A stretch of 49,845 nucleotides of DNA from Kiritimatiellales bacterium (GCA_021734665.1 JAIPIN010000002.1:1-49845); one strand, 5' to 3'; positions 20,475 through 43,593 are shown, counted from the first letter of the stretch. The notes: generated from the sequence alone by a model not told the origin. Made by a program: numbers and translations.

Positions 20475-21317
20475 TTAAACGCAGGTCAACGATTTTGCCA
20501 GGTTTGTTTGGAGGGCTGCCGAGCCGTGTTTTTTGAACCATGCCTTTTGTGCTTTATTGAGCACCTTTGCATATTCATACAATTCTTGAGCATATGGGAG
20601 TGACATACGAATATAATGCTTCATATCTTCCAATTCTTGCTCTGACATTTCTATATACGAACGAACACTCACATTTTCTCTCCACATATGACTAACAGGT
20701 ACACCCATTAACGTGTAACAAATCGAAAAATCTTCGCTCTGTTCCATGAGACCTACAAACGCACATTCATCTAATACACATTTTGCACTTTGAAAGTGAT
20801 CCCATGTTGGCAAGAACTGCTCTCCTGTATGAAGATCTGTACAATATTCAAGTACATACCCCACATGATTCATATCTTTATATCCTTTTCTATATTCAAA
20901 CCACTGCCTTAACGAACGTATCTCCCCGTTTTCCGAGAACAAGCCCCAGTGTCGTTCGGTGTGATTTTCCTCGTCATACTGTCGTCGGAAAAAATTATAC
21001 AAAGATAAAATGCGGTCAACAGGATCTCTGAGAAATACAACTCTCATCACATCCCTATCTTCAAAAAAATTCTCAATTTCTTCCATATAAACATTATGTC
21101 CAAATACTGCACGCACTCTATTTTGCTCTTCCTGTGTCATATCGCGAAAATGATCTATAGCTTTCACTCCCTCGACTGTATTGTACGCCGAAATAATTTC
21201 TCCTTCTTCGCAATTGCGTACCATGTGATGACAGATTGTGGTACCTCCGGTCTTTGGTATATGGAGAAATGCGAATAGTGGCCTATGTTGCTCTGATGCA
21301 TTATCCATATAATCCAC
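20475..21317 (-). CDS. sulfotransferase (Sulfotransfer_2-like), paralogue of the C-terminal domain of the upstream ABC ATPase
   Basis: 280 aa. The 5'-PSB-like motif is FLHIPKTGGTT and the 3'-PB-like motif is FLRDPVDRILSLYNF. It aligns end to end with aa 270-550 of ORF 21384-23036. Confidence 0.75.
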   Translation of the reverse strand: MDYMDNASEQHRPLFAFLHIPKTGGTTICHHMVRNCEEGEIISAYNTVEGVKAIDHFRDMTQEEQNRVRAVFGHNVYMEEIENFFEDRDVMRVVFLRDPVDRILSLYNFFRRQYDEENHTERHWGLFSENGEIRSLRQWFEYRKGYKDMNHVGYVLEYCTDLHTGEQFLPTWDHFQSAKCVLDECAFVGLMEQSEDFSICYTLMGVPVSHMWRENVSVRSYIEMSEQELEDMKHYIRMSLPYAQELYEYAKVLNKAQKAWFKKHGSAALQTNLAKSLTCV

Positions 21318-21383
21318 TCAAATATAACAAACTATCCAAGTAACACCAAACATCAGATGTATAACCATGAATACATGAAATTA

Positions 21384-23036
21384 TCACGAAACAGGTTGTA
21401 CGGATTTTATATGTACAGAGCTTGCCACTCCTGCATTGCTCACATCTTTTTGACAATGAAGAAATTGTTCTTTTTGTTTTATTATCTTATTAAGCTCTTT
21501 TGCATATTCATACAACTCCCAATCGTAAGGCAAAACAGAGCGAGCATACGTTTTTAACTCGTCCATGGTCCTAAATCCGGACTCTTCAAGTGTAATATAC
21601 GATCGTGGTGTTACATTGATCTTATACGGATGCCCCTGTTTGATACCAAGCAATGAATACAGAATATCGTAATCTTCGCTCTGCTCTGTAATACCCACAA
21701 ACGAAAATTGCCTTAGAATCGCTTTGAGTGACTCAAAATGTTGCGCAGTAATGCCACCCTTTGCAGGAACGGAAATATAAAACCAGCGCAAAAAGAATCC
21801 GACGGGACTAAGAATATGATTAGGGTTTGTTTCGGTGTCTAACCATTCACGAAATAATCTCACACTCCCATCACTACGAAAGAGATTGGTATAAATACCT
21901 GGCTGACCAGTGCGATCATATTCACTACGATGATAATTGTATTTCGAAATAAGACGCTCGGCAGGATCTCTCAAAAATGTAACATATCGCAATGCTCTCT
22001 CGGGGAAACACTTTGCAACCAATTCGGAACGAAGATCGTGCGAAAATAATACCTGTACCTTTTTACAATCTTTCCAAGACAGCGCGGCAAATTTTTCCTG
22101 CGCTTTCGGATCACTTTCAGATGTGCGATAGTACGACCATACCGTATCTTTCGGCAGACTATTAACAACATGTTCTCTAATTGTAAGTCCTCCAGTTTTT
22201 GGAACATGCACAAAAACCGTAAGCGGCTTACCATGCCAAACACCTCGTATATGCACAGAAGGATGAATCGGCACATTGTGCTTCACAGCAATGCTAAATG
22301 CCTTGCTGCTATACTCCTCATATGCCATGAGTACCTCTGCAGACGCACCATACATCTGCACTTTTCCCTTATCAATCCAAAGCACTTTATCAGCAAATTC
22401 TTGCATAAATTCCGAACTGTGCCCTGTCATAACCACAGTTGCCTCGCTACTTACAAGTTCCGCCATACGATTACGACTTTTATTTCTGAATTGCAAATCA
22501 CCAGTTGCAAACACCTCATCCAATAAGAGAATTTCCGGCTCCAAATGTGCCGCAATAGCAAAAGCTAATCGAGCAGTCATACCACTGGAAAACTTATACC
22601 AATGCACATCCACAAAATCTTCCAATTCAGAAAACGCCACAATTGAATCAAATTTTTCCGATATAGCCTCCCGTGACAACCCAAGCAAAGAACCTATTAA
22701 ATAAATGTTATCGCGCATCGTTAGCTTTGGCTCCGCACCAACAGCAGTACTAATCAGTGGCACTAAATTACCATGTGTACATACATCTCCACTGGTAGGA
22801 GGATATATGCCAGCCAACAGCCTCAGAAGAGTAGTTTTCCCAGATCCGTTGCGACCAATAATTCCAAGTACCTCTCCTTGCCGCAAGGTAAGAGATACAT
22901 TATCTAGTGCTCTGATCTTGCGCGGCATACTCGATCCTTTTACTGCTCCAACCACTTTTGCCAAAATTGTCCCCTCCTCTTGTAAGATGAAATCCTTAGT
23001 AAGATTGCGTGCCAAAATTGAAATATTCAACGTCAT
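21384..23036 (-). CDS. polysaccharide/teichoic-acid type ABC transporter ATP-binding protein (Wzt/TagH-like) fused to a C-terminal sulfotransferase domain
   Basis: 550 aa with Walker A GRNGSGKTT, signature FSSGMTARLAFA, Walker B ILLLDE and H-loop TGHS. VFVHVPKTGGLT and FLRDPAERLISKYNY follow. It overlaps the ABC-2 permease gene by 4 nt. Confidence 0.85.
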   Translation of the reverse strand: MTLNISILARNLTKDFILQEEGTILAKVVGAVKGSSMPRKIRALDNVSLTLRQGEVLGIIGRNGSGKTTLLRLLAGIYPPTSGDVCTHGNLVPLISTAVGAEPKLTMRDNIYLIGSLLGLSREAISEKFDSIVAFSELEDFVDVHWYKFSSGMTARLAFAIAAHLEPEILLLDEVFATGDLQFRNKSRNRMAELVSSEATVVMTGHSSEFMQEFADKVLWIDKGKVQMYGASAEVLMAYEEYSSKAFSIAVKHNVPIHPSVHIRGVWHGKPLTVFVHVPKTGGLTIREHVVNSLPKDTVWSYYRTSESDPKAQEKFAALSWKDCKKVQVLFSHDLRSELVAKCFPERALRYVTFLRDPAERLISKYNYHRSEYDRTGQPGIYTNLFRSDGSVRLFREWLDTETNPNHILSPVGFFLRWFYISVPAKGGITAQHFESLKAILRQFSFVGITEQSEDYDILYSLLGIKQGHPYKINVTPRSYITLEESGFRTMDELKTYARSVLPYDWELYEYAKELNKIIKQKEQFLHCQKDVSNAGVASSVHIKSVQPVS

Positions 23037-23782
23037 ACGTATTCAGCGAATTTAGGTGAAATTCGATTAAAAATTACGCTTCCCACACCGTAAACCACCA
23101 ATGCAAAACAAGCAAAAATTCCGAGTAAAAGTAAGTCTGGTACTCTGGAATAAACAAGAACATCTCGCGATAATTCAATGGAATAAAACATTGGATTAAA
23201 CATGCTAACCTTTTCACCTGGTCCTCCCGGATGCAACATATAAAAAATAGGTGTTGCAAACCACCACGCACGCATTAGCACAGACCATACCTGTCCCAGA
23301 TCACGAAATATAAAATGCAAAGAAGAAAGCATGAGGCCAACACCAAACGTAAATATAAATTGAAATGCGAGAAGAATAGGAAAAAACAATGCTGTTACAG
23401 ATAAGGACCCATTATAAATAAGAAATACCGACAACAGCAGAAGTTCAAAAATATGCGAGAAAAAAACATCCAGTACTACCGATAAAACAATGTGCCTTTT
23501 ATTTACAGGCAAAGATTTAATAAGTGTAGCTTCTCCCATAACAGCATTAAGAGATTGCGATGTTGCAGCACTAAAGAAATTCCATACCACCACTCCCGTA
23601 AGAAGATACGAAGAATAATGCTCAATATTACTACCCAAACGCGCAGAAAAAACTAACAAGAGAATGATAAATGTTAACAATGGTCCCAACAAATACCAGA
23701 AAACACCCAAAAAACTCCCTTCGTTACGCAATTTGAAACGCGCTTTTGTCAGTTCGAAAATGAAATCAAAATTCTTATGCAT
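23033..23782 (-). CDS. ABC-2 type transporter permease (Wzm/TagG-like)
   Basis: 249 aa with six hydrophobic segments. The N-terminus ELTKARFKLRNEGSFLGVFWYLLGPL is typical of ABC-2 polysaccharide exporters. It is coupled to the ATPase gene. Confidence 0.85.
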   Translation of the reverse strand: MHKNFDFIFELTKARFKLRNEGSFLGVFWYLLGPLLTFIILLLVFSARLGSNIEHYSSYLLTGVVVWNFFSAATSQSLNAVMGEATLIKSLPVNKRHIVLSVVLDVFFSHIFELLLLSVFLIYNGSLSVTALFFPILLAFQFIFTFGVGLMLSSLHFIFRDLGQVWSVLMRAWWFATPIFYMLHPGGPGEKVSMFNPMFYSIELSRDVLVYSRVPDLLLLGIFACFALVVYGVGSVIFNRISPKFAEYV

Positions 23783-23874: not shown

Positions 23875-23972
23875 TTCCCCTTTCCCCTTTCCCCTTTCCC
23901 TTTCCCCTTTTCCCTTTCCTCTTTTCCCTTTCACTTTTCACTTTTAACTATTCACTCTTCACTCTTCACTCT
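23875..23972 (+). repeat. polypyrimidine tract: a 58-nt uninterrupted C/T run of (CCCTTT)-like words, then (CACTCTT/CACTTTT) words
   Basis: Read directly. Positions 23875-23932 contain only C and T. Up to 23972 only scattered A and no G occur. It ends 13 nt before the lysK ATG. Confidence 0.9.
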
Positions 23973-23985: not shown

Positions 23986-25575
23986 ATGTCTTGGGTTGAT
24001 CCGATAGTCGGCGAAATACAAGAGCGCCTTGCGGAAAAAATTGCGAGCAAGGAGCCACTCATTATTCGTGATGAAAAAACTCTATCAGGCAAAGTTCACG
24101 TAGGCTCACTACGCGGAATTGTAATTCATGGACTTATTGCACAAGCTCTAAACGAAAAAGGGATTGAGAATGATTTTAAATTTGAATTAAATGACTTTGA
24201 TCCAATGGACGGACTACCTGTATATGTAGACCAAAATGAATATAAGAAACACATGGGAAAACCATTATTTACAGTTCCATCTTTTGAACCAAATGCAGAA
24301 AACTATCCAATGGTGTTTGGTGATGAATTAAAAGAAGTAGTTCAGCCACTTGGGCTACCAATTGATTTTTACCGCTTGCGACCATTATATGAAGCTGGAA
24401 AATTTAATGACGTGATTACCGAATCTCTTGATCACGCCGAAGAAATTAGAACAATTTATCTGGAAGTAAGTGGCGGTGGTAAGCCAAACGATTGGTATCC
24501 ACTTAGTGTTGTATGTGAAAAATGTGGCAAGATAGGAACAACACAAGTAACCGATTGGAATGGCAAACAAGTGACGTATACCTGCAAGAAAGATTTAGTA
24601 GATTGGGCAGAAGGATGCGGACATGAGGGAAAATGCAGTCCATTTGATGGAAATGCAAAACTTCCTTGGAAAGTGGAATGGCCTGCCAAATGGAAAGTTC
24701 TTGGCGTGGATATAGAAGGTGCTGGAAAAGATCATGCTACCTCGGGAGGCTCGCGCGAAATTGCAGCAAGAATTTCTGAAGAAGTCTTTCATTATCCAAA
24801 TCCATTCGATATTCCTTACGAATTCTTTAACTTCCAAGGAAAAAAGATGAGTGCCAGCAAAGGCTTGGGGGCATCGGCAAAAGAGGTAGCAGACATGTTG
24901 CCACCAACAATGCTTAAACTGCTTATGATAAGAAAGCAACCCAATCAACCAATAGATTTTGATCCACAAGGAAAAACCATTCCAAATCTGTTTGATGAAT
25001 ATGATCGCCTTGCTGACCATTACTTTAAACGACATAAAGAACCATTCGAAGGATTCGCACGCACATTCCAACTCGCACATATTAATCCAGCCACGCCACC
25101 CGCAGATCTTTGGCAGATGCGCTTCACTGTATTAAGTTTTGTATTGCAAATGCCGCATTTAGATCTAGAAACCGAGGCTAGCAAGCTTAAGGGAGCTGCA
25201 CTAAATCAAGCTGAAAAGGAGAATCTCAAAGAAAGGGCGTTTTATGTAAGACAGTGGCTGGAAAACTACGCGCCCGACGAGTACAAGTACACGATTCTAT
25301 CCGAAGCACCTGCTGATCTAAACCTTGATGACGAACAGAAGAATGCACTAAAAGAACTTGAAAAGGCTCTATCTGACGAAACATTGCAATGGGAGGGACC
25401 TGCTATTCATGAGTGTATTCATAAAGTAAAAGAAGCAACTGGCATTGAACCAAAAAAGATATTTCAACCTCTTTATCAGATCTTCCTAGGACGTGATCGT
25501 GGGCCGCAAGTGGGGTGGTTTTTGAGTACTTTTTCGCGCGCAGACATGATACAAAGACTAGCCGCCATTTCATGA
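23986..25575 (+). CDS. lysK: lysine--tRNA ligase, class I (archaeal type)
   Basis: 529 aa. The HIGH-region equivalent is SGKVHVGSLRG, KMSKS is present as KMSASKG, and the internal Cys cluster is CEKCGKIGTTQV...CKKDLVDWAEGCGHEGKC. Confidence 0.85.
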   Translation: MSWVDPIVGEIQERLAEKIASKEPLIIRDEKTLSGKVHVGSLRGIVIHGLIAQALNEKGIENDFKFELNDFDPMDGLPVYVDQNEYKKHMGKPLFTVPSFEPNAENYPMVFGDELKEVVQPLGLPIDFYRLRPLYEAGKFNDVITESLDHAEEIRTIYLEVSGGGKPNDWYPLSVVCEKCGKIGTTQVTDWNGKQVTYTCKKDLVDWAEGCGHEGKCSPFDGNAKLPWKVEWPAKWKVLGVDIEGAGKDHATSGGSREIAARISEEVFHYPNPFDIPYEFFNFQGKKMSASKGLGASAKEVADMLPPTMLKLLMIRKQPNQPIDFDPQGKTIPNLFDEYDRLADHYFKRHKEPFEGFARTFQLAHINPATPPADLWQMRFTVLSFVLQMPHLDLETEASKLKGAALNQAEKENLKERAFYVRQWLENYAPDEYKYTILSEAPADLNLDDEQKNALKELEKALSDETLQWEGPAIHECIHKVKEATGIEPKKIFQPLYQIFLGRDRGPQVGWFLSTFSRADMIQRLAAIS

Positions 25576-25581: not shown

Positions 25582-26361
25582 ATGTCATTACCAATACAAA
25601 CATCACAAACGCATCCTCATTATACGCGCTGTTGGTTTGTTATTTGTTTTCTGTCTCGTTGTGGTTCATCTCACTTAGTATCTCTTCTTAACAGTCATAA
25701 AAATATTGAGTGCTACTCAGAAGAATTCGCACCAGATCCACATGACGAAACCAAACGTACATTACACCTAACACCCGAAAGGGCACTGCAACGTATACAT
25801 AATATTTATGTAGAACATCCTCTCAGCTCCCATGCCGCTGGATTCAAATTTAAATATCCAGTCCAATTTGGGTTGTATCCAGAAATACATGATTACTTGT
25901 TGCAACACAAAGAACATTTGAAAATTATACAGTTAACACGCAAAAATAGTCTTAAGAGATATGTATCAAACATAAATGCAAAAAATCTCTTCAGCAAAGA
26001 AGGTAAATGGAATGCTTTCCAACACATTTCCGCAACACCACTACACATAGACATTGAAGAATGTAAACGATACATGGAAAATTATGAACAGAACGTCAAA
26101 CAATTAGATACTGCTATCAAAATATTTCCCAACAAACTCTCTATTACGTACGAAGATCTCTTTGAGAACCCCACAGAAACGCTGCGCACCATTTTGACCT
26201 TTCTGGGCGTATCAACAGATGAAAACCTCTCTTCACAAGTCCATAAATATACAACTGATGATCTTGCAAAAGCTGTATCGAATATTGAAGAAGTACAAGC
26301 AGCGTTGTATGGTACGAAATGGCAGGTTTTTCTCCCAAAATCTGCCCCAATCAAAAAATAA
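25582..26361 (+). CDS. NodH/Stf0-like sulfotransferase
   Basis: 259 aa. The PAPS 5'-phosphate loop-like motif is ICFLSRCGSSHLVSLLNSH and the 3'-phosphate motif-like segment is IIQLTRKNSLKRYVSNI. The C-terminal ITYEDLFENPTETLRTILTFLGV follows the layout I recall for NodH. Confidence 0.65.
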   Translation: MSLPIQTSQTHPHYTRCWFVICFLSRCGSSHLVSLLNSHKNIECYSEEFAPDPHDETKRTLHLTPERALQRIHNIYVEHPLSSHAAGFKFKYPVQFGLYPEIHDYLLQHKEHLKIIQLTRKNSLKRYVSNINAKNLFSKEGKWNAFQHISATPLHIDIEECKRYMENYEQNVKQLDTAIKIFPNKLSITYEDLFENPTETLRTILTFLGVSTDENLSSQVHKYTTDDLAKAVSNIEEVQAALYGTKWQVFLPKSAPIKK

Positions 26362-29532: not shown

Positions 29533-30333
29533 ATGATTGACGTTTCAATAATTATCCCGACCTACAAACGTCCTGAGCTAACTGCGCAGGCAGTTAATTC
29601 ATGCAAAAAACAATCTGGATGTTCAATCGAAATTATAGTTGTCCATGATGGCGATAATATTGATCAAAAATTAGATGGGAATGTTAGGCAGATATACCAA
29701 GAACATAAAGGAGCAGCAGCAGCTCGCAACTTGGGACTCAGCGAGGCCAAAGGTACATATATAAAATTTTTAGACTCGGATGATTTGCTCAATCCAGAAT
29801 CGCTATGCAAACAGGTCGTGGAATTAGAAAAATCCAATGCAGATGTATCTGTTGGAAAATGGAAATATTGTGACAGCGAAGGGAATCCAGAAAATCATAT
29901 TCATTGTGAGTATATTGAAGACATGTTACCAATTCTTGTTGCTGGATTTTGGAATGCAAACTTCTCATACCTATTTCGTAAATCATGGCTAATAAGTAAC
30001 CATTGTAAATGGGATATTGATTGCGCTGTTCTTCAAGACTTTGCATTCATTATGGAAGTAAGTTTAAAAAGGGCACGCTTCATTAAATCTGACATAGAAA
30101 CTGGTTTTTATAGAAGACATAAACTTGGCCAGCGTGTATCTAGATCCTCTGATGAGTGCCGTTCCAAACACTATTATGAAATTCTTGAATCGGCACAAAA
30201 ATACTTATTAACTTCAAATAAAATAAATCCTGTGTATACCACACTTATAGATACACAAATGAAAAAAATCTCGGCAATGGAATCTATACCAGAAAATATA
30301 AGTGCCATGACGAGAGCTTGCCGGCTAACTTAA
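29533..30333 (+). CDS. GT2 family glycosyltransferase (single domain)
   Basis: 266 aa with VSIIIPTYKRPELTAQAVNSCKKQ, IIVVHDGDN, AAAARNLGL and FLDSDD. Confidence 0.85.
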   Translation: MIDVSIIIPTYKRPELTAQAVNSCKKQSGCSIEIIVVHDGDNIDQKLDGNVRQIYQEHKGAAAARNLGLSEAKGTYIKFLDSDDLLNPESLCKQVVELEKSNADVSVGKWKYCDSEGNPENHIHCEYIEDMLPILVAGFWNANFSYLFRKSWLISNHCKWDIDCAVLQDFAFIMEVSLKRARFIKSDIETGFYRRHKLGQRVSRSSDECRSKHYYEILESAQKYLLTSNKINPVYTTLIDTQMKKISAMESIPENISAMTRACRLT

Positions 30334-38191: not shown

Positions 38192-38257
38192 AATATGATT
38201 ACATCCTACATACGCCATCGTGTACAATCAACAACCTTACATCGATCACATAACACA

Positions 38258-39391
38258 ATGAGAATCCTCTTCTGTAGCCATAATAGTCAATTACAAGGCG
38301 CTCCACTCAATATTCTGAGATGTGCACGCCTACTAAAAGAGCGTGGAATTCAATGTGTTATTAGTTCACCAGAAGATGGTCCTATCCGAGAAATGTCGGA
38401 TGAGCACTGTATAACATTTGATATACAGCCGAATCTCTTCCATCCAAAATACTCGAAAGAATGTTTGATGGATATTATCAAACGACATAAGCCAGATATT
38501 ATCTTTATAAACACAATACTTGGTGCCGCAATTGTAAAAAACACCAAAGCTTTATTTCCACATCTACCAATCATATGGAACATACGCGAATCCGAACGTG
38601 AGAATTTTATGAATGCGTATGACTACATAACACCAAAGTCTTTTGAATTAGCAGATGCAATTATTTTTGTATCAGAAAAAACAAAACAAGCTTACCAAGA
38701 TTTGGACAGCGGCAATATGCATGTAATCCATAATGGAATTGATGTAGAAAAAATTGCAAGATCTATTGATCCTAAACAAAAAAATACTCTTAAGGAGAAA
38801 ATGGGCATTCCTAGAAATGCTACAACCGTTGTACTTGTTGGATCGATCTGTCCTCGCAAAGGACAAAGTGAATTTATCTCTTCTGGAATACGCGTTGCGC
38901 ACCGCATTGGGAATAAGCACCCTGTGCGCTTTGTTATTGTAGGTAAATTACACACTAATTTTAGAAAATATTTAGAGCTCTCTCTAAAACGAGCGGAGGA
39001 AGAAGGATATCGTGACAATTTCATCTTATTGCCAGAACAACAGGATATGACAAACATCTATCAAATGTCCGATATTCTGGTATCCAATTCCTTTATTGAA
39101 TCATTCCCTATGGTGACATTAGAGGCAATGGCATGGGGAATACCGATTATTGCTAGTAATGTATATGGAGTTAGCGAACAAATACAAAACAATATAAATG
39201 GGCTTCTATTCTTGCCAGGCCATGTGAGCATGCTTGCAGAAAAACTTGAATATCTGATTTTACACCCAGATATTGCGCAATCTCTTGGAGAAGAAGCCCA
39301 GAGAAATGTCCGCGAAAAATTTACAGAAGATAATATGATCACTAAGTACATTTGGCATCTAAATAACCTTATAGAACAAAAAGTGAGCTAA
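38258..39391 (+). CDS. GT4 family (GT-B) glycosyltransferase
   Basis: Starts MRILFCSHNSQLQGAPLNIL, and the C-terminal half has SNSFIESFPMVTLEAMAWGIPIIASNVYGVSEQI. The tracked ORF start (38108) would overlap the divergent gene and was rejected. Confidence 0.85.
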   Translation: MRILFCSHNSQLQGAPLNILRCARLLKERGIQCVISSPEDGPIREMSDEHCITFDIQPNLFHPKYSKECLMDIIKRHKPDIIFINTILGAAIVKNTKALFPHLPIIWNIRESERENFMNAYDYITPKSFELADAIIFVSEKTKQAYQDLDSGNMHVIHNGIDVEKIARSIDPKQKNTLKEKMGIPRNATTVVLVGSICPRKGQSEFISSGIRVAHRIGNKHPVRFVIVGKLHTNFRKYLELSLKRAEEEGYRDNFILLPEQQDMTNIYQMSDILVSNSFIESFPMVTLEAMAWGIPIIASNVYGVSEQIQNNINGLLFLPGHVSMLAEKLEYLILHPDIAQSLGEEAQRNVREKFTEDNMITKYIWHLNNLIEQKVS

Positions 39392-39412: not shown

Positions 39413-40813
39413 CTATATAATAATTTCCTCTTCTCTCTCGGGCATAAAAATTTCCACCCCATTCTTTGATTTCTTAATACGATCTGCAAAAGGTTGCATG
39501 CTTTCCATTTCTCCATGCACTAAAATTATTTTCTTTATTCCCTCCGTATCAGAAACAAAATTATCTAGATCATTCATATCCGCGTGACCCGAATATGCGT
39601 TGATATATACCACTTCTGCACGCTTTTGGTACATCTCATCAAAAATTTTAACTTCTGTAATTTCTGGATCCACAATCCTACGACCGAGTGTATTGTTGGC
39701 CATATAACCAACTGCAAGAATTGTATTACGCTCATCTTCGATCTCGTTACGTAAATGATGACGAATCCGACCCGCTTCACACATTCCTGATCCAGCCATA
39801 ATAATAATAGGACCTGGTGTTCCATTTAATGCTTTGCTCTCTTCCACCGACGCCGTGTACTTAACCAGAGAAAACTGAAAAGGATTATGTGCTTTAGATA
39901 AGAATTGTTCATACATATCTTTGTCATAACATTCTGGGTGCTGCATAAAAACATCTGTTACCTTGGTAGCAAGTGGAGAATCTACAAAGATAGAAATTCC
40001 TGGGATCTCTTTTTTGTCCCACAAAACGTGCAGATCGTAGATAATCTCCTGAGTGCGCTCCAAAGAAAAGGCAGGGATTAGTACTTTTCCTCCTCTCTTT
40101 GCCGTGTTAACTACAACCTCTTTTAAATGATCTACAGCTGTAGAAATATCTTCATGTAAACGATTACCATATGTACTCTCGCAAATAAGAATATCTACTG
40201 GCGGCATAGGGGATGGATCTCTGATAATCGGGAGCATATTTCGACCCAAATCCCCAGTGAAACCAACGTACTTAGTCTCTCCATTCTCTGTTACTTCCAA
40301 AATAACCATTGCCGCTCCAATAATATGCCCCGCCTCAATAAATTTTGCCTTTACTCCTTCACATACATCAAACCAGTTTTCGTAATTCTCACCCTGAAAT
40401 ACTTCCATACAATCAATCGCATCCTGCTGCGTATATAAAGGGCCCTTACAATCCATTTTTGATTTTGCCAAATGCTTACAAAAGTACTCTTCGTCTTTCT
40501 CATGTATATACCCACTATCCATCAACATAACCTCTACTAAATCCTTTGTGGCATATGTGCAATGAACATTTTTGCGAAATCCATTCTTATATAGAAGTGG
40601 AATACGCCCCGAATGATCCATGTGTGCATGCGAAAGAACAACAGCATCAATATCTTTTGCAGGATCAAATGTAAATTCTGCATTCTTTACCGCGGCTTCG
40701 CTTCTTTTACCTTGAAAAAGGCCGCAATCTAACAAAATACGCTTAGACCCAACTTGAACTTCGTGGCATGTTCCTGTTACCTCTCGAGCCGCACCATGTG
40801 GAATAATTTTCAT
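39413..40813 (-). CDS. MBL-fold beta-CASP ribonuclease (CPSF/RNase J-related)
   Basis: 466 aa with HGAAREVTGTCH and the HxHxDH motif VLSHAHMDHSGRIP. Length and C-terminal SGHAD fit beta-CASP. Confidence 0.85.
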   Translation of the reverse strand: MKIIPHGAAREVTGTCHEVQVGSKRILLDCGLFQGKRSEAAVKNAEFTFDPAKDIDAVVLSHAHMDHSGRIPLLYKNGFRKNVHCTYATKDLVEVMLMDSGYIHEKDEEYFCKHLAKSKMDCKGPLYTQQDAIDCMEVFQGENYENWFDVCEGVKAKFIEAGHIIGAAMVILEVTENGETKYVGFTGDLGRNMLPIIRDPSPMPPVDILICESTYGNRLHEDISTAVDHLKEVVVNTAKRGGKVLIPAFSLERTQEIIYDLHVLWDKKEIPGISIFVDSPLATKVTDVFMQHPECYDKDMYEQFLSKAHNPFQFSLVKYTASVEESKALNGTPGPIIIMAGSGMCEAGRIRHHLRNEIEDERNTILAVGYMANNTLGRRIVDPEITEVKIFDEMYQKRAEVVYINAYSGHADMNDLDNFVSDTEGIKKIILVHGEMESMQPFADRIKKSKNGVEIFMPEREEEIII

Positions 40814-40908
40814 AAAAAGTTAATAGGAAATATATTATGCAATAGATCCCTCGTAGCCCCGAAGGGCGAAGTGGGATCGAGCCGCACCATGTGGAATAAT
40901 TTTCATAA
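40784..40908. repeat. 32-nt direct repeat (40784-40815 and 40877-40908) duplicating the 5' end of the beta-CASP gene, flanking a 61-nt insert with a GC-rich palindrome (40845-40878, GCGAAG family copy iv)
   Basis: tcgagccgcaccatgtggaataattttcataa occurs twice with an offset of 93 nt. The palindrome is GATCCC-TCGTAGCCCCGAAGGGCGAAGT-GGGATC. Confidence 0.9.
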
Positions 40909-40965
40909 GTGCAATCAGGATAGCACACAACAACTAAGTGCCACATAGCTCAAAACAAAGTATGG

Positions 40966-43593
40966 CTATCGAATTCCAACCAATTCAGAATATGATGATT
41001 CTTTACTTTCTATAATCGGAGATATAGCACCATTGGCAATTTTAGCCACATTCTTACCCGGAAAAGCTAGTAATCGAACTCCATTTAATTTCATTCTTTT
41101 CCAAAGCAATTTATCCTCATCATTAAGAGATACCTCCATAAATAATCGCCCAGATTCCACAATAGAACGATGTATAAGAGTAGCTTCTAATGGTATATCT
41201 AAAATATCTATTTCATTGCTTGATTTGTAAATTAACTTACTTTCACTATTTTCTATAGCATAATCACCATAAGCAATTGCGCATTGCTGATGCTTCATCT
41301 TAGGTAAAAGCCAACGAATTCGTTCTGGATCAAGCAGGCTAGATGCATTTAAGAAACAAAGTACGGGATACATATTAGCCAAATCACTATTAATATTAAG
41401 ACCCGCATTTTTTACAGTTGACTGCAAAGCATTCTTTGAACATTTTTTTGTACCACACCAATCTGCTGTACTTTCCGACAAATCAATTTGCATATTCGAT
41501 TCCAGATTATCACTCCATGTTACAATCCAGCTGAAACCATCTAATGCAGTATTAAGATTATCTATAAGCCCTATCGGTTGAACATCATTAGTTGCCCAAA
41601 GTACAACATGTATTCCTGGTAGCGGAATCCAATCCTCACCTCCGCCCCAAGAATGAACATACGGATACTTGCGACGCCATATAAGTATATTATGCTGATG
41701 TAATAAAGACTTAAAATGTGCCTTTTCATGACCAAATGATGCATGATTTTCATGAAGAACCTCAACATCATCAAGTCGTCCCCAAAATGCTCCTCTCTGT
41801 AAAGCACGATAAGACAAATCTGCTTCTTCTAATCCATATTTAGAAAATGCCTCATCTAACGGGCCTATACGATCAAGCCATTCACTATCCCAAATAACAC
41901 ATGTTGCAGGAACCGGAGAAGTTAAATATGTAAATTCATCCACGCGTGGTTTGCCCAATACAACGTTGTCTTTGTTTTTCTGAACAAGCCATGGCCCAAT
42001 ACATGACAAACGTTTTTCTTCTATAAAATATATCATTCTCCTAATCATTACAGGAGTCTGCAATATACAATCATCATTCAAAAACAATACATACTGTTCA
42101 TTTTTACGCTGTTCAAGTCCCCTATTAATAGAACGAGAAAAATTAAACGGACCAGGAAGATAAATAACCTGTGCATTGTGTTCTTTCGCAAGTAATTCGA
42201 TGTCTTCATTAGAACATTCATCTTCTGGACAAACAACAATAGTAATTGCAATACGAACGCCTTCGGCATTATCAAATACAGATTTTAAGCAACGTCGAAG
42301 CATTGGGCAATCTTGCCCATTAGTTGGTATAACTACTTGCACACTCCTATCTTTTTTTAAAGGAGAAGCAATATATGGATGATGCCATATATATTTAACT
42401 ATATCTGATGGTAGTTTCTTTTGTTCTTGCTTCACAGATTTTGCGATTTCATTTTTAGTTTTCTCTCTGTCACTTTTAGCCTTTTTACTGTCTCCAAAAA
42501 CATTAAGGAAAATACGCTTTTTTGTGCGCTTAATTAAAACATCTGCAAAACGAAGCCAAGATGTAAAACGCCAACTCTTTGAACGATGTATACGTTCAAG
42601 ATCTGCTTCTAGCCGTGCACAATGATCAAGTAACGATGGATCATTATATTCCGCATTTTTGGCAGACGATCTTTCGGATGCCAATTCCTGTGCAATTTTT
42701 TCCATCGTATCAAGAGCATTAAACAAAAGACTACTGCGCTCCTCTTCTCTTTTTGTATCAGCAGAATACTTGAGCGCAGGTGCCTGAAGCGGATCTAATA
42801 CAATAGAAAATTGATTCTGTTGCTCTGGAGTTGATCCGTAGGTTTGTGCAATATCGCATAATTCTTCCTGCGACAATGGATCCCCTGTTTTTAGTCGTTC
42901 AAAAAGCTCACGCCAATGCCACGCATCCTTATTTAATCCACGCACCAAGTTGCGCGGCCAGGACAATAGATTTTTTTTAGTTAACTGATTAATACTGCGC
43001 ACGGGAAAATGTGCAATTGCAAGATTATGTGCAATATCCAATGGATAGTGATAATGCTGCTTTAGCAACAGATTATGATTACCTTGAGATATAGCGATAT
43101 CTTCACGAGATGCAATTTTTGAAGACACAACTAATTTTGTAAGACAAGAATGAGGATCTGATAATCGGTGTTGTATGCGCCTAAGAATATTCACTTCACT
43201 AAGATCATCATTTGCAGTTGGTATGTAATTGTACCAAGGAAGTCGATATGAACTATCACCTTTTAATTGAGCAATTTCATCACTAACATCACCTTTCTTG
43301 CTGAACAGAAATTCATCCCCATCCAAAGGAACAATCCATTTAATATCTTGTCGCTTAGCAACCTCCTCCATGCATTCTGTGATCAATTCTGATTGTTTTT
43401 GGGCAATACCAGAAAAATTACATATATGGATTGGAAGGCCTTCCTTCTTCAATTTTTCTAATATGGCTTTTGTTTCATCATCACTATCATGATCAATGAT
43501 ATACATTTCATCCAAAATTCCCACATGATATCGCACAAAGGACTCTATTATGTCTTCCTCGTTACGAACCATGCTAATGGATACAATGCTCAT
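40966..43593 (-). CDS. three-module glycosyltransferase: N-terminal GT2-like (Glyco_tranf_2_4-type), helical linker, central GT2, C-terminal GT-A-like region
   Basis: 875 aa. The N-terminus is MSIVSISMVRNEEDIIESFVRYH..YIIDHDSDDET..PLDGDEF. The linker ends in RSKSWRFTSWLR. The central module has VQVVIPTNGQDCPMLRRCLKS..FLNDDC. Confidence 0.8.
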   Translation of the reverse strand: MSIVSISMVRNEEDIIESFVRYHVGILDEMYIIDHDSDDETKAILEKLKKEGLPIHICNFSGIAQKQSELITECMEEVAKRQDIKWIVPLDGDEFLFSKKGDVSDEIAQLKGDSSYRLPWYNYIPTANDDLSEVNILRRIQHRLSDPHSCLTKLVVSSKIASREDIAISQGNHNLLLKQHYHYPLDIAHNLAIAHFPVRSINQLTKKNLLSWPRNLVRGLNKDAWHWRELFERLKTGDPLSQEELCDIAQTYGSTPEQQNQFSIVLDPLQAPALKYSADTKREEERSSLLFNALDTMEKIAQELASERSSAKNAEYNDPSLLDHCARLEADLERIHRSKSWRFTSWLRFADVLIKRTKKRIFLNVFGDSKKAKSDREKTKNEIAKSVKQEQKKLPSDIVKYIWHHPYIASPLKKDRSVQVVIPTNGQDCPMLRRCLKSVFDNAEGVRIAITIVVCPEDECSNEDIELLAKEHNAQVIYLPGPFNFSRSINRGLEQRKNEQYVLFLNDDCILQTPVMIRRMIYFIEEKRLSCIGPWLVQKNKDNVVLGKPRVDEFTYLTSPVPATCVIWDSEWLDRIGPLDEAFSKYGLEEADLSYRALQRGAFWGRLDDVEVLHENHASFGHEKAHFKSLLHQHNILIWRRKYPYVHSWGGGEDWIPLPGIHVVLWATNDVQPIGLIDNLNTALDGFSWIVTWSDNLESNMQIDLSESTADWCGTKKCSKNALQSTVKNAGLNINSDLANMYPVLCFLNASSLLDPERIRWLLPKMKHQQCAIAYGDYAIENSESKLIYKSSNEIDILDIPLEATLIHRSIVESGRLFMEVSLNDEDKLLWKRMKLNGVRLLAFPGKNVAKIANGAISPIIESKESSYSELVGIR

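What the first reader, a model, noticed from the sequence alone, without database searches (positions are those of the whole stretch)
20475..43593. 23-kb glycan assembly island with 4 sulfotransferase domains and about 11 GT domains, abutting the ribosomal superoperon
Seen: the island holds an ABC-2 permease plus ATPase and three sulfotransferase genes of two families, giving four ST domains with the fusion. It has GT2 and GT4 genes (26403, 28202, 29533, 33681, 36980, 38258, 40966). It also has a SAM methyltransferase domain, a NodB-type deacetylase and an Lnt-like membrane protein. I saw no Wzx/Wzy-like genes and no WecA/WbaP/TagO-type priming transferase in the window. I also saw no PAPS-synthesis genes (sulfate adenylyltransferase, APS kinase). 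Established: this gene set is the signature of ABC-transporter-dependent polymer synthesis (O-PS, wall teichoic acid, secondary cell wall polymers). Inference: the product is a sulfated, possibly methyl-capped, cell-surface glycan. That would be unusual for a reduced-genome bacterium, which would also need a PAPS source.
Basis: partly seen in the sequence, partly recalled or inferred. Interest (0 to 1): 0.7.

Follow-up and report, generated by a model that had tools for sequence, protein, structure and literature searches.

The report
Sulfated surface-glycan locus in a Peribacteria genome
A tiny-genome (CPR, Peribacteria) bacterium carries a real gene set for building and exporting a cell-surface sugar polymer. 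One sulfate-adding enzyme is fused directly to the export pump, an arrangement I did not find described, so these uncultured bacteria probably make sulfated coats.

Summary
The window (Candidatus Peribacteria, CPR) holds a Wzm/Wzt ABC-2 exporter, seven glycosyltransferase genes and an N-terminal SAM methyltransferase domain. It also holds a NodB-type deacetylase, an Lnt-like membrane protein and sulfotransferases of two families. Two corrections apply. There are three sulfotransferase (ST) domains, not four. There are ten Pfam-supported GT domains plus one degenerate candidate.

The "23-kb island" is not contiguous. It is three variable slots in a backbone conserved across Peribacteria: rplC, lysS (class I LysRS), a beta-CASP RNase and rluA-like.

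The Wzt ATPase lacks the usual cap-binding domain. It carries instead a paralogue of the neighbouring ST, with the PAPS-binding and catalytic residues intact and a heparan-sulfate O-sulfotransferase-like predicted fold.

ST domains recur at this locus in at least nine Peribacteria species. They are fused to Wzt, fused into giant MT-GT proteins, or standalone. The gene set is therefore not a random collection.

Best reading: an ABC-transporter-dependent, methyl-capped, sulfated surface glycan, with sulfation physically coupled to export. This is a new variant of a known kind. No PAPS-synthesis gene, priming transferase or ligase is in the window, and the rest of the genome could not be searched. 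Nothing is shown chemically.

The parts
19726..20340 (-). rplC (ribosomal protein L3). Left boundary of the variable region and first gene of the ribosomal operon block.
   Evidence: Pfam Ribosomal_L3 in the gene list. It is 91% identical in L004 and is found upstream of lysS in 21 Peribacteria loci.
20475..21317 (-). ST2a: standalone Sulfotransfer_2-family sulfotransferase. The likely ATG start is at 21308, giving 277 aa.
   Evidence: Pfam PF03567 at 36.4 bits against a cut-off of 22. The motifs PKTGGTT, GH and RDPxxRxxS are present. The L004 orthologue is 49% identical.
21387..22253 (-). Sulfotransferase domain (residues 262-550) fused to the C-terminus of Wzt.
   Evidence: It is 36% identical to ST2a, E 5e-52. 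Pfam Sulfotransfer_2 scores 23.4 bits when the domain is scanned alone. K19, H72, R95 and S103 are invariant. The AF2 model has pLDDT 81.6, and the top Foldseek hits are HS 6-O- and 2-O-sulfotransferases.
21384..23036 (-). Wzt-ST: ABC-transporter ATPase of the Wzt/TagH type, 550 aa. The nucleotide-binding domain covers residues 1 to about 250. There is no Wzt_C carbohydrate-binding domain and a sulfotransferase domain takes its place.
   Evidence: ABC_tran at 81.8 bits. NCBIfam galactan Wzt/RfbE E 2.9e-56 and TagH E 5.5e-44. PDB hits are RfbE, TarH, TagH and A. aeolicus Wzt. There is no PF14524 hit, whereas that domain is annotated on about half of the Wzt homologues listed.
23033..23782 (-). 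Wzm: ABC-2 permease. It overlaps wzt by 4 bp.
   Evidence: ABC2_membrane at 37.7 bits. NCBIfam Wzm/RfbD E 4.6e-13. It is 67% identical in L004.
23875..23970 (.). Pyrimidine-rich 7-bp tandem repeats (TTCCCCT, then TTTCACT) in the divergent wzm/lysS intergenic region.
   Evidence: TRF and the sequence itself.
23986..25575 (+). lysS: class I lysyl-tRNA synthetase. This is a backbone housekeeping gene that splits the island and is not part of the glycan system.
   Evidence: tRNA-synt_1f at 298 bits and TIGR00467 at 335 bits. It was used as the anchor for 80 CPR loci.
25582..26361 (+). ST3: NodH-like sulfotransferase (Sulfotransfer_3/1).
   Evidence: PF13469 at 44.1 bits and PF00685 at 35.7 bits. 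The PDB hit is 9vki, 'LPS sulfotransferase NodH', E 4.8e-5, with the P-loop aligned (SRCGSSHL against ARSGSSHL). An iterated search links it to the ST genes of L006, L084 and L029.
26403..28205 (+). 600-aa protein: N-terminal coiled coil, then an SWQWT motif, then two GT2 domains.
   Evidence: Glycos_transf_2 at 125.9 bits with 2 stretches. The second domain scores 30.9 bits alone. The L006 orthologue is 51% identical and the L018 one 41%.
28202..29422 (+). GT4 glycosyltransferase, 406 aa.
   Evidence: Glycos_transf_1 at 66.7 bits.
29533..30333 (+). GT2 glycosyltransferase, 266 aa.
   Evidence: Glycos_transf_2 at 91.4 bits.
30397..31731 (-). Lnt-like polytopic membrane protein with a CN-hydrolase domain. 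The catalytic Cys motif is present. The catalytic Glu position appears to be Gln.
   Evidence: CN_hydrolase at 42.6 bits. TIGR00546 at 101 bits, below its cut-off. In the PDB Lnt alignment ILCYED aligns with ICYEI and VIFPQ with IIWPE. No homologue exists in the related loci.
31855..32826 (+). TM323: orphan membrane protein of about 10 helices, first gene of the TM323-PDA-MT/GT co-directional run.
   Evidence: No Pfam or NCBIfam hit. The only hit among 5.8 billion proteins is itself. The single-sequence AF2 model is unusable at pLDDT 50.
32850..33596 (+). NodB-type polysaccharide deacetylase. By reading, it has no signal peptide.
   Evidence: Polysacc_deac_1 at 60.3 bits and the sequence.
33681..37079 (+). 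1132-aa candidate terminator-ruler-polymerase. It consists of Methyltransf_24 (residues 1 to about 240), a helical E/K/R/Q spacer (256-475), an SKSWRWT motif, then GT2 and GT2.
   Evidence: Methyltransf_24 at 47.1 bits and Glycos_transf_2 at 105.7 bits with 2 stretches. The first GT2 scores 45.9 bits alone. The spacer is 61% E/K/R/Q and 0.5% P+G. MT-spacer-GT relatives occur in L016, L018, L021, L030 and L031.
34488..34786 (+). 24-bp tandem repeat, 12.5 copies, encoding (REKQEQEL)n inside the helical spacer.
   Evidence: TRF score 367, 81% matches. Translation.
36980..38227 (-). GT4 glycosyltransferase, 415 aa. Its 3' end overlaps the 1132-aa gene by 100 bp, convergently.
   Evidence: Glycos_transf_1 at 64.1 bits and Glyco_transf_4 at 45.7 bits. 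It is 36% identical in L006.
38258..39391 (+). GT4 glycosyltransferase. The ORF opens at 38108, and homology begins at residue 51, which is 38258.
   Evidence: Glycos_transf_1 at 104.8 bits. The L006 orthologue aligns from residue 51.
39413..40813 (-). Beta-CASP/RMMBL metallo-beta-lactamase RNase. This is a backbone housekeeping gene and not part of the glycan system.
   Evidence: Beta-Casp at 136.5 bits. It is 65-74% identical in 11 Peribacteria loci, always downstream of lysS.
40966..43593 (-). 875-aa protein: Glyco_tranf_2_4, coiled coil, SKSWRFT motif, GT2, then a C-terminal domain with no hit (a possible degenerate GT-A).
   Evidence: PF13704 at 59.8 bits and PF00535 at 62.5 bits. The C-terminal 262 aa have no Pfam hit. 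N-terminal relatives occur in L005 and L031.
43675..44406 (-). RluA-like pseudouridine synthase. Backbone gene and right boundary of the variable region.
   Evidence: PseudoU_synth_2 at 89.5 bits and S4. It is conserved next to the beta-CASP gene in relatives.

Best explanation
The region is an O-antigen-like, ABC-transporter-dependent surface-glycan locus of a Candidatus Peribacteria (CPR) bacterium. Its genes fill three variable slots of a conserved backbone (rplC | slot A | lysS | slot B | beta-CASP RNase | slot C | rluA-like).

Proposed mechanism; every step below is inferred unless marked as shown:
1. A polyprenyl-phosphate-linked primer is made by an enzyme encoded elsewhere.
2. The primer is extended on the cytoplasmic face by three GT4 enzymes, one small GT2 and three multidomain GT2 proteins.
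3. The chain is decorated in the cytoplasm by a NodB-type de-N-acetylase and by PAPS-dependent sulfotransferases: the NodH-like ST3 and the HS-O-sulfotransferase-like ST2a.
4. Growth is ended by a methyl cap. The cap is added by the methyltransferase domain that sits on a roughly 220-residue helical spacer of the 1132-aa MT-spacer-GT2-GT2 protein. This is the WsaE/WbdD/WbbB logic of a terminator held on a ruler.
5. Wzm/Wzt exports the polymer. In place of the usual cap-binding module, Wzt carries a catalytically intact-looking sulfotransferase domain. I infer that this domain binds the chain as it engages the pump and sulfates it, which would couple a final sulfation to export.

Shown: the domain content, the fusion, the conservation of catalytic residues, the predicted fold, and the recurrence of ST domains in the same machinery in related species.

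Inferred: the substrate, the order of steps, the coupling to export and the cell-surface destination.
For: Domain content.

The Wzt NBD is closest to the RfbE, TarH, TagH and A. aeolicus Wzt structures. It lacks PF14524, which is annotated on about half of the Wzt homologues listed.

The fused domain:
- It is a paralogue of the adjacent ST.
- Lys, His, Arg and Ser are invariant.
- Its predicted fold matches only PAPS sulfotransferases, best HS 6-O- and 2-O-ST.
- The fusion and the neighbouring ST are kept in a second species, L004. There the NBD is 68.5% identical, the ST domain 41.6% and ST2a 48.9%, with motifs intact.
- A third species (L084, protein P0005) has Wzt fused to a different ST type (Sulfotransfer_1, 23.3 bits) at the same lysS-adjacent position.

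ST domains built into the same machinery in other species:
- L021: MT24, spacer, GT2, GT4 and ST in one 1366-aa protein next to Wzt/Wzm.
- L029: GT2-GT4-ST-GT2 in a protein of at least 1412 aa.
- L006: two standalone STs with Wzm/Wzt, a TylF methyltransferase and orthologous GTs.
- L018, L014 and L017: ST2-type genes.

MT-spacer-GT proteins together with Wzm/Wzt between lysS and the beta-CASP gene occur in L016, L018, L021 and L030.

Precedents:
- WsaE has an N-terminal methyltransferase plus two GT domains. It makes the terminating methyl cap and lies next to wzm/wzt (PMC2943079).
- Wzt recognises a modified chain terminus through its C-terminal domain (PMC9445017).
- Cobetia marina makes a sulfated capsule through an ABC-transporter route, with STs encoded in the cluster (PMC11766843).
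Against: - No priming transferase, ligase/LCP/oligosaccharyltransferase, nucleotide-sugar pathway or PAPS-synthesis gene is in the window. The rest of the genome could not be searched. By contrast, the Cobetia cluster carries cysNC, cysD, cysQ and a sulfate permease (PMC11766843).
- The three slots lie on both strands and are separated by housekeeping genes. They may encode more than one product.
- The Lnt-like protein, TM323 and the deacetylase have no counterpart in any related locus. Their role in the pathway is therefore unsupported.
- The rplC-lysS slot in other Peribacteria sometimes holds non-glycan genes such as helicase/ResIII/SNF2 proteins. Location alone does not imply function.
- Catalysis by the fused domain, and any coupling of sulfation to export, is untested.
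Confidence: 0.62

Rival explanations
1. The ST-like domain on Wzt is not an enzyme. It would be a recognition module that binds an already sulfated (or otherwise anionic) chain terminus, doing the job of the classical Wzt carbohydrate-binding domain. Sulfation itself would be carried out only by ST2a and ST3.
For: - It occupies exactly the position of the cap-binding domain of other Wzt proteins (PMC9445017).
- It is a duplicate of the adjacent standalone ST, a typical origin for a binding module.
- It evolves faster than the NBD: 41.6% against 68.5% identity to L004.
Against: - The PAPS 5'-phosphosulfate-loop Lys, the putative catalytic His and the 3'-phosphate Arg/Ser are all retained in the window, in L004 and across 13 homologues.
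- The same Lys and Arg/Ser motifs are readable in the unrelated ST domain fused to Wzt in P0005.
- Pseudo-enzymes normally lose such residues.
Confidence: 0.15
2. The region is a recombination hot spot that has collected parts of several unrelated envelope pathways. The sulfotransferases, the exporter and the slot B and slot C glycosyltransferases would not act on one polymer.
For: - Three slots are separated by housekeeping genes, and the genes lie on both strands.
- Slot contents differ widely between species and sometimes are not glycan genes at all.
- The Lnt-like protein, TM323 and the deacetylase are unique to this genome.
Against: - ST domains are covalently fused to Wzt (window, L004, L084) and to MT/GT polymerase-type proteins (L021, L029). 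This ties sulfation to this exporter-dependent machinery.
- L006 keeps orthologues from slot A and slot B together.
Confidence: 0.17
3. The products are sulfated, N-modified lipo-oligosaccharides of the Nod-factor type, exported by a NodIJ-like ABC-2 transporter, and not a long polymer. The analogy is NodB deacetylase, NodH sulfotransferase, NodS methyltransferase and an N-acyltransferase (here the Lnt-like protein).
For: - The best solved relative of ST3 is NodH.
- A cytoplasmic NodB-type deacetylase, a SAM methyltransferase domain and an acyltransferase-family membrane protein are present.
- NodI models match the NBD at E 1e-22 to 1e-25.
Against: - The NBD scores far better against Wzt/RfbE and TagH (E 1e-44 to 1e-56) than against NodI.
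- There is no NodC-type or NodA-type hit.
- Ten GT domains and a 220-residue spacer protein fit a long polymer.
- The catalytic Glu of the Lnt-like protein seems replaced by Gln.
Confidence: 0.04
4. The sulfotransferase genes are functionless relics, because the reduced genome cannot make PAPS.
For: - No PAPS-synthesis gene is in the window.
- The published description of Peribacteria genomes does not mention sulfate activation (PMC4736985).
Against: - All three ORFs are intact with conserved catalytic motifs.
- Orthologues and analogues persist in at least nine species with amino-acid divergence but preserved motifs. That pattern indicates selection.
Confidence: 0.04

Closest known systems
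Wzm/Wzt O-antigen ABC transporters with a C-terminal carbohydrate-binding domain (E. coli O8/O9a, Aquifex aeolicus; PMC9445017)
   Same: - ABC-2 permease plus Wzt-type NBD.
- An extra domain at the C-terminus of the ATPase.
- A chain-modifying terminator enzyme is encoded nearby.
- The NBD matches the solved Wzt, RfbE, TarH and TagH structures.
   Different: - The C-terminal domain is not Wzt_C (PF14524). It is a PAPS-sulfotransferase fold with catalytic residues intact.
- The host is a CPR bacterium without an evident LPS pathway.
S-layer glycan (slg) cluster of Geobacillus stearothermophilus NRS 2004/3a with WsaE (PMC2943079)
   Same: - wzm/wzt lie next to a multidomain protein with an N-terminal methyltransferase and two GT domains that caps and ends the chain.
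- G+C is lower than in the flanks.
- The cell is Gram-positive-like, and an SLH-domain protein is encoded nearby.
   Different: - No rml genes, WsaP-type primer or WsaB-type oligosaccharyltransferase are in the window.
- The Peribacteria protein has a roughly 220-residue E/K/R/Q helical spacer.
- Sulfotransferases are present.
Coiled-coil 'molecular ruler' terminators WbdD (E. coli O9a) and WbbB (Klebsiella O12 / Aeromonas salmonicida) (own knowledge; PMC11231755, PMC4483657)
   Same: A terminating or modifying domain is separated from the polymerising domains or the membrane by a long helical segment. Spacer length varies between relatives: the SxSWRWT motif is at residue 328 (L016), 345 (L021) and 471 (window).
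   Different: - The terminator chemistry differs: Methyltransf_24 here, against a kinase-methyltransferase or a Kdo transferase.
- The spacer contains an 8-residue ER/K-type repeat. It may be a single alpha-helix and not a coiled coil.
- No experimental link to chain length exists.
Sulfated capsule cluster of Cobetia marina KMM 1449 (PMC11766843)
   Same: ABC-transporter-dependent assembly with glycosyltransferases and sulfotransferases in one locus. The product is a chemically proven sulfated polysaccharide.
   Different: - KpsMT/KpsSC group-III capsule system in a gammaproteobacterium.
- The sulfotransferases are not fused to the transporter.
- The cluster carries its own PAPS genes (cysNC, cysD, cysQ, sulfate permease), which are missing from this window.
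Aeromonas salmonicida wb(salmo) O-antigen cluster (PMC4483657)
   Same: A sulfotransferase-domain ORF lies immediately next to wzt and a WbbB-type multidomain GT in an ABC-transporter-dependent cluster.
   Different: - It is a separate 216-aa gene, not a fusion.
- No sulfate was found in that O-antigen, and the authors left the function open.
NodH / LpsS carbohydrate sulfotransferases of rhizobia and animal heparan-sulfate 2-O/6-O-sulfotransferases
   Same: - ST3 aligns with NodH (9vki), including the P-loop.
- The Wzt-fused domain has the HS 2-O/6-O-ST-like fold, TM 0.54-0.59.
- All act on glycans with PAPS.
   Different: - Sequence identity is below 20% for the fold matches.
- The acceptors are unknown.
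- The context is an exporter fusion.

Membership tests
ABC-transporter-dependent (Wzm/Wzt) glycan assembly system | ABC-2 type permease (Wzm) | tested here: met
   ABC2_membrane at 37.7 bits against a cut-off of 26.9. NCBIfam Wzm/RfbD E 4.6e-13.
ABC-transporter-dependent (Wzm/Wzt) glycan assembly system | Wzt/TagH-type nucleotide-binding subunit encoded next to the permease | tested here: met
   The best NCBIfam hits are Wzt/RfbE and TagH. PDB hits are RfbE, TarH, TagH and Wzt at E 1e-40 to 1e-46. The gene overlaps wzm by 4 bp.
ABC-transporter-dependent (Wzm/Wzt) glycan assembly system | Cytoplasmic glycosyltransferases able to build the whole chain, with no Wzx flippase or Wzy polymerase | tested here: inconclusive
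   There are seven GT genes with ten Pfam-supported GT domains and no Wzx/Wzy Pfam hit. The orphan 10-helix membrane protein TM323 could not be classified.
ABC-transporter-dependent (Wzm/Wzt) glycan assembly system | Polyprenyl-phosphate priming transferase (WecA/TagO or WbaP type) | tested here: not met
   No such Pfam or NCBIfam hit exists in any island protein, and no candidate ORF exists elsewhere in the window. The rest of the genome was not available.
ABC-transporter-dependent (Wzm/Wzt) glycan assembly system | Enzyme that attaches the exported glycan to its acceptor (WaaL, LCP or WsaB type) | tested here: not met
   Not found in the window. Genome-wide presence is not testable here.
Capped-chain subtype (Wzt with cap-binding domain plus terminator enzyme) | Wzt_C (PF14524) carbohydrate-binding domain | tested here: not met
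   There is no PF14524 hit, while that domain is annotated on about half of the homologues listed. A sulfotransferase domain takes its place.
Capped-chain subtype (Wzt with cap-binding domain plus terminator enzyme) | Terminator/modifying domain linked to polymerising GT domains | tested here: met
   Methyltransf_24 at 47.1 bits, a helical spacer and two GT2 domains lie in one 1132-aa protein. The activity is not testable.
PAPS-dependent sulfotransferase fold | 5'-phosphosulfate-binding loop (PKxGxT or RxGSS) and 3'-phosphate-binding Arg/Ser | tested here: met
   K19, G22, R95 and S103 are invariant in 13 ST2-type sequences. The ST3 P-loop aligns with NodH.
PAPS-dependent sulfotransferase fold | Catalytic base (His) and overall fold | tested here: met
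   H72 is invariant. The AF2 model has pLDDT 81.6 and pTM 0.81. All 50 best PDB matches are PAPS sulfotransferases.
PAPS-dependent sulfotransferase fold | Sulfate transfer from PAPS to an acceptor, and availability of PAPS in the cell | not testable with these tools
   No PAPS-synthesis gene or motif is in the window.
Mobile genomic island | Integrase, flanking tRNA or direct repeats, and a contiguous insert | tested here: not met
   The only tRNA is at 265-339. There is no integrase among the Pfam hits. The region is split by conserved lysS and beta-CASP genes.
Nod-factor (NodABCHIJS) pathway | NodC chitin-oligomer synthase and NodA acyltransferase | tested here: not met
   The only NodC match is a weak sub-threshold one: the 600-aa GT2 protein scores 26.6 bits against TIGR04242, whose cut-off is 550. 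No NodA hit was found. Only NodB-type, NodH-like and weak NodI similarities are present.

The most novel reading that the evidence does not exclude
In this Peribacteria clade the exporter itself is the last biosynthetic enzyme. The sulfotransferase domain that has replaced the cap-binding module of Wzt would sulfate the chain end (or the chain as it threads) and thereby license export. That would be an export-coupled modification mechanism, which I found described for no ABC-transporter-dependent glycan. Because these reduced genomes show no PAPS synthesis in the window, the cells would obtain activated sulfate from a host or partner. Their sulfated, phosphate-free polyanionic coat would then be a read-out of that dependency.
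Probability: 0.2. Interest if true: 0.8.

Novelty: new variant of a known kind. Interest (0 to 1): 0.6.

Why it matters
- Sulfated polysaccharides are considered rare in bacteria. One paper calls them unique to cyanobacteria (PMC8205485), and a few marine gammaproteobacterial capsules are chemically proven (PMC11766843). I found no paper linking them to CPR/Patescibacteria.
- If the prediction holds, a whole class of uncultured, ultra-small, probably partner-dependent bacteria wears a sulfated surface polymer. That bears on how they attach to hosts, resist phages and cope with scarce phosphate.
- It also raises a testable question about where a reduced genome gets PAPS.
- For glycobiology, the Wzt-sulfotransferase fusion is a natural experiment on how ABC exporters select finished chains. 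An enzyme sits where a lectin-like module normally sits. The same idea has arisen with two different ST families, and in related species the ST is instead fused into the polymerase.

Tried and rejected
1. The full-length Wzt-ST search gave four high-scoring long hits. Alignment and context showed that P0002-P0004 are tandem double-NBD proteins, not ST fusions. Only P0005 is a fusion.
2. The exhaustive representative search with the ST domain gave 1110 hits. Of the 11 long proteins I retrieved (10 of them from the 150 best hits of that search), only P0005 carries an ABC domain, and that one came. The others are tandem STs, an MT-ST and an ST-GT2. The L004 fusion is not in that library.
3. The metagenome scan with the ST2 alignment returned only distant STs at 23-31% identity. 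Only one locus (L096) showed a weak Wzt-like match about 3 kb from the ST. It gave no help on distribution.
4. I looked for a fourth ST domain in TM323, in the C-terminus of the 875-aa protein and in the inter-GT regions, and found none.
5. TM323 was considered as a possible PAPS or nucleotide-sugar transporter, a ligase or a polymerase. It has no homologue and the single-sequence model is too poor to search with. The question is left open.
6. PDB sequence searches with the MT domain, the GT2 pair and the 875-aa protein gave nothing useful.
7. A PAPS source could not be tested. Literature searches for CPR with APS kinase or sulfotransferase were empty or irrelevant. Motif regexes found nothing in the window.
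8. The mobile-island reading is rejected: no integrase, no flanking tRNA, and an interrupted structure.
9. The promoter/terminator scan was not above shuffled expectation and was not used.

Full report
**What is there**

ORF listing and profile searches give the following order.
- rplC: 19726-20340(-).
- ST2a, a Sulfotransfer_2-family gene: 20475-21317(-).
- Wzt fused to a second ST domain: 21384-23036(-).
- Wzm: 23033-23782(-).
- Class I lysyl-tRNA synthetase: 23986-25575(+).
- ST3, a NodH-like Sulfotransfer_3/1 gene: 25582-26361(+).
- A 600-aa coiled-coil protein with two GT2 domains: 26403-28205(+).
- GT4: 28202-29422(+).
- GT2: 29533-30333(+).
- Lnt-like membrane protein: 30397-31731(-).
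- TM323, an orphan membrane protein of about 10 helices: 31855-32826(+).
- NodB-type deacetylase: 32850-33596(+).
- A 1132-aa protein with Methyltransf_24, a helical spacer and two GT2 domains: 33681-37079(+).
- GT4: 36980-38227(-).
- GT4: 38258-39391(+).
- Beta-CASP RNase: 39413-40813(-).
- An 875-aa protein with Glyco_tranf_2_4, a coiled coil, GT2 and a C-terminal domain of unknown type: 40966-43593(-).
- RluA-like pseudouridine synthase: 43675-44406(-).
- A 1408-aa DUF4215 cysteine-rich protein, then an SLH-domain protein.

To the left lies a normal ribosomal-protein, SecY, Adk, Map and RpoA block. G+C falls from 0.41-0.45 in the ribosomal block to 0.35-0.40 across most of the glycan genes.

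**Check of the observation**

There are three corrections.
1. There are three ST domains, not four. ST2a scores 36.4 bits and ST3 44.1 bits, both above the Pfam thresholds. The Wzt C-terminal domain scores 23.4 bits when scanned alone. It is 36% identical to ST2a over 252 residues, E 5e-52. No further ST domain appeared in relaxed Pfam scans of the unassigned segments, nor in a custom ST2 HMM and phmmer search of all ORFs.
2. Ten GT domains have Pfam support. The eleventh, the C-terminus of the 875-aa protein, has no hit and by eye looks like a degenerate GT-A domain.
3. The 23-kb stretch is interrupted by two housekeeping genes.

The absences are also confirmed for the window. These are Wzx/Wzy, priming transferase and PAPS synthesis.

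**Organism and genomic setting**

I used the lysyl-tRNA synthetase in the middle of the region as an anchor against one genome per GTDB species.
- The best matches are Candidatus Peribacteria/Peregrinibacteria (CPR) MAGs: 83% identity for L004, 81% for L005 and 76% for L006.
- About 30 Peribacteria loci fall at 59-83% identity. Other CPR phyla follow at 50% or less.

A tblastn of all window proteins against these loci shows a backbone conserved across the class: rplC, lysS, the beta-CASP RNase and rluA-like. The material between these genes is highly variable.

| Interval | Other Peribacteria | This window |
|---|---|---|
| rplC to lysS | 160 bp to 9.3 kb | 3.6 kb |
| lysS to beta-CASP | 1.25 to 6.9 kb | 13.8 kb |
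| beta-CASP to rlu | 12 bp to 2.4 kb | 2.9 kb |

The "island" is therefore three filled slots of a hot spot, not one insert. There is no integrase or flanking tRNA. In other species the first slot can hold unrelated genes, for example large ResIII/SNF2 helicase-like proteins in L026 and L022. This matches the published remark that strain variation in Peribacteria concentrates in envelope and large cysteine-rich surface proteins (PMC4736985).

**The sulfotransferases are real**

The four ST2-type sequences are ST2a and the Wzt domain, each from the window and from L004. They share invariant PK(T/S)GG, a GH/SH histidine and the RD...R..S motif. In an alignment with nine more distant homologues, only K19, G22, H72, R95, S103 and G187 stay invariant. 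From my own knowledge of PAPS sulfotransferases, these are:
- the 5'-phosphosulfate-loop Lys;
- the catalytic His;
- the 3'-phosphate-binding Arg and Ser.

An AlphaFold2 model of the Wzt-fused domain has mean pLDDT 81.6 and pTM 0.81. Against the PDB, all 50 best matches are PAPS sulfotransferases. The leaders are heparan sulfate 6-O-ST (5t03, E 1.6e-6) and 2-O-ST (4ndz, TM 0.59).

ST3's only significant solved relative is 'LPS sulfotransferase NodH' (9vki, E 4.8e-5). The P-loop is well aligned: FVICFLSRCGSSHLVSLLN against FVVLSLARSGSSHLMSLLN.

**The Wzt-sulfotransferase fusion**

The NBD is a typical Wzt/TagH-type domain. About half of the Wzt homologues listed carry an annotated Wzt_C domain (PF14524). 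This protein has none and has the ST domain in that position.

The fusion is rare.
- Among the best 120 of 6051 Wzt-like hits in 5.8 billion proteins, only one other protein, P0005, is a Wzt-ST fusion. Three other long hits are double-NBD proteins.
- In an exhaustive HMMER search of 1.84 billion representatives with the ST domain, the long hits I retrieved are tandem STs, an MT-ST and an ST-GT2. None of them carries an ABC domain.

The fusion is conserved in the nearest species. L004 has rplC, ST2a (270 aa), Wzt-ST (538 aa), Wzm and lysS. Identities to the window are NBD 68.5%, ST domain 41.6% and ST2a 48.9%, with all motifs intact.

P0005 comes from a third Peribacteria species (L084, LysRS 77% identical). 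It lies at the same lysS-adjacent position, but its fused domain is a different ST type (Sulfotransfer_1, 23.3 bits; about 21% identity, E 0.004, to the window domain). Two different ST families fused to the same exporter ATPase argue for a functional reason.

**Sulfation is wired into this machinery across the class**

- L006: Wzt (no ST), Wzm, an ST1/3 gene, lysS, a TylF methyltransferase, a second ST1/3 gene, and orthologues of the 600-aa GT2x2, the GT2-GT2 protein and both GT4s.
- L018: an ST2-type gene next to lysS, plus MT-spacer-GT2 and Wzm/Wzt. L014 and L017 carry its homologues.
- L021: a single 1366-aa protein with Methyltransf_24, spacer (SRSWRWT motif), GT2, GT4 and Sulfotransfer_1, next to Wzt/Wzm.
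- L029: a protein of at least 1412 aa with GT2, GT4, Sulfotransfer_1/3 and GT2.

Counting the window, L004 and L084, at least nine species have ST domains within this locus.

**The methyltransferase-spacer-GT protein**

Residues 256-475 of the 1132-aa protein are 61% E/K/R/Q with one Pro/Gly in 220 residues. Part of this segment is encoded by a 24-bp repeat of 12.5 copies giving (REKQEQEL)n. It ends in an SKSWRWT...LR motif. The same motif follows the helical segments of the 600-aa and 875-aa proteins and of relatives in L006, L016 and L021. Its distance from the N-terminus varies: residue 328, 345 and 471.

An N-terminal methyltransferase plus two GT domains next to wzm/wzt is the architecture of WsaE, which makes the terminating 2-O-methyl cap of the Geobacillus S-layer glycan (PMC2943079). 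A terminator held on a long helix recalls WbdD and WbbB (own knowledge; module organisation reviewed in PMC11231755). I could not compare sequences with those proteins directly, and PDB sequence searches with these domains were uninformative.

**How it most likely works**

The steps below are inferred unless stated otherwise.
1. A lipid-linked primer is made by an enzyme encoded elsewhere.
2. The GT4 and GT2 enzymes extend it in the cytoplasm.
3. The NodB-type enzyme, ST3 and ST2a decorate it.
4. The MT domain caps it.
5. Wzm/Wzt exports it.

Because the fused ST domain sits where other Wzt proteins bind the finished chain end (PMC9445017) and looks catalytically competent, I propose that it sulfates the chain as the chain engages the pump. 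That would tie a last modification to export.

The destination is unknown. An SLH protein and a giant cysteine-rich surface protein are adjacent, and Peribacteria are reported to encode S-layer proteins and a sortase (PMC4736985). A wall-linked or S-layer-linked glycan is therefore plausible. A phosphate-free polyanion, functionally like a teichoic or teichuronic acid, is a speculation of mine.

**Weak points**

- No PAPS synthesis, priming transferase, ligase or nucleotide-sugar genes are in the window.
- The proven sulfated-capsule cluster of Cobetia carries its own cysNC, cysD, cysQ and sulfate permease (PMC11766843).
- The Lnt-like protein, TM323 and the deacetylase are unique to this genome. 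The Lnt-like protein may also lack its catalytic Glu (low-scoring alignment).
- The three slots may serve more than one product.
- Nothing is shown biochemically.

**Comparison with what is known, and novelty**

- ABC-transporter-dependent glycans with capped ends, and sulfated bacterial polysaccharides made by ABC-transporter routes, are both known.
- A sulfotransferase-domain ORF next to wzt was noted but left unexplained in Aeromonas salmonicida (PMC4483657).
- I found nothing on a sulfotransferase fused to the exporter ATPase, nothing on ST domains inside MT/GT polymerase proteins, and nothing on sulfotransferases in CPR bacteria. The library searches run for this were made, and the library is incomplete.

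I rate this a new variant of a known kind, with moderate-to-high interest (0.6). Its value lies in a testable export-coupled sulfation mechanism and in the PAPS-supply question for reduced genomes.

Noticed in passing
window 23875-23970: The divergent intergenic region between wzm and lysS is almost entirely pyrimidine-rich 7-bp tandem repeats on the + strand. These are TTCCCCT at about 8 copies, then TTTCACT at about 11 copies. It could be a slippage-prone regulatory tract for one or both genes.
   Followed up: no
window 34488-34786: A 24-bp tandem repeat of 12.5 copies (81% matches) encodes (REKQEQEL)n inside the helical spacer of the 1132-aa MT-GT protein. An 8-residue ER/K-type repeat suggests a single alpha-helix and not a heptad coiled coil. 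Copy-number change would alter the spacer length.
   Followed up: partly
window 26403-28205, 33681-37079, 40966-43593; L006 9538-11154; L016 12975-14045; L021 6578-10675: The motif S(K/R)SW(R/K/Q)(W/F)T followed by ..LR recurs directly after the helical segment of multidomain GT proteins, upstream of their GT2 domains. I do not know a description of it. It may be a membrane-association or docking helix.
   Followed up: partly
window 30397-31731: The Lnt-like protein keeps the catalytic Cys motif (ILCYED against E. coli ICYEI). At the position of the catalytic Glu (IIWPE) it reads VIFPQ, so the E-K-C triad may be E to Q. The alignment there is low-scoring.
   Followed up: partly
window 31855-32826: A 323-aa membrane protein of about 10 helices has no homologue in 5.8 billion proteins and no Pfam or NCBIfam hit. 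It sits at the head of the deacetylase and MT-GT gene run. Its role is unknown; a transporter, ligase or polymerase are all possible.
   Followed up: partly
window 9227-11035: Two non-ribosomal genes sit inside the ribosomal operon between L15 and S5. One is a 393-aa CAP/SCP-domain protein on the opposite strand (9227-10408). The other is a DJ-1/PfpI family protein (10526-11035).
   Followed up: no
window 19726-21317 and L014, L017, L023, L025: rpsJ (S10) is not upstream of rplC. In this genome a sulfotransferase gene is there, and in many Peribacteria the divergently oriented lysS is. No terminator-like site was detected between ST2a and rplC, so wzm-wzt-ST2a may read through into the ribosomal operon.
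   Followed up: partly
window 44518-48744 and 48897-49646: A 1408-aa DUF4215 cysteine-rich repeat protein has 14 Pfam repeats and a 294-bp DNA tandem repeat at 46525-47358. It is followed by a 249-aa SLH-domain protein. Related DUF4215 proteins occupy variable positions around lysS in many Peribacteria loci, which matches the large cysteine-rich surface proteins described in PMC4736985.
   Followed up: partly
L004 6118-6930 and 7413-9029: In L004 the last roughly 26 residues of the Wzt-ST fusion and of the standalone ST2a are nearly identical (YEYAKELNKKQKKQL..KLAKSL.FA), although the domains are only 44% identical overall. This suggests recent gene conversion between the two paralogues.
   Followed up: no
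L021 6578-10675; L029 17348-21583: These are giant single polypeptides. L021 combines methyltransferase, spacer, GT2, GT4 and sulfotransferase. L029 combines GT2, GT4, sulfotransferase and GT2. In effect each is an assembly line for a modified repeat unit in one protein.
   Followed up: partly
L026 836-9982; L022 5031-9938: In these Peribacteria the rplC-lysS slot holds very large proteins (1220, 1823 and 1635 aa) with ResIII/SNF2/helicase domains. These may be defence-related genes occupying the same hot spot.
   Followed up: no
L088 3892-5802: On a 405-kb metagenome contig with a distant ST2-type homologue, the adjacent ORF carries an APS-kinase-like P-loop (GxSGxGKS). This fits the usual pairing of PAPS synthesis with sulfotransferases outside CPR.
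   Followed up: no
window 36980-37079: The 3' ends of the 1132-aa MT-GT gene and the convergent GT4 gene overlap by 100 bp. Both C-terminal tails are low-complexity.
   Followed up: no
P0147, P0186, P0127 (representative library): The same ST2 family occurs elsewhere in several fusions. One is a tandem with the P0005-type ST domain (P0147). One has an N-terminal extension resembling a class I SAM methyltransferase, which I judged by eye because no profile scan was run (P0186). One has three ST copies plus a GT2 (P0127). Sulfotransferase fusions with glycan enzymes are therefore more widespread than this clade.
   Followed up: no
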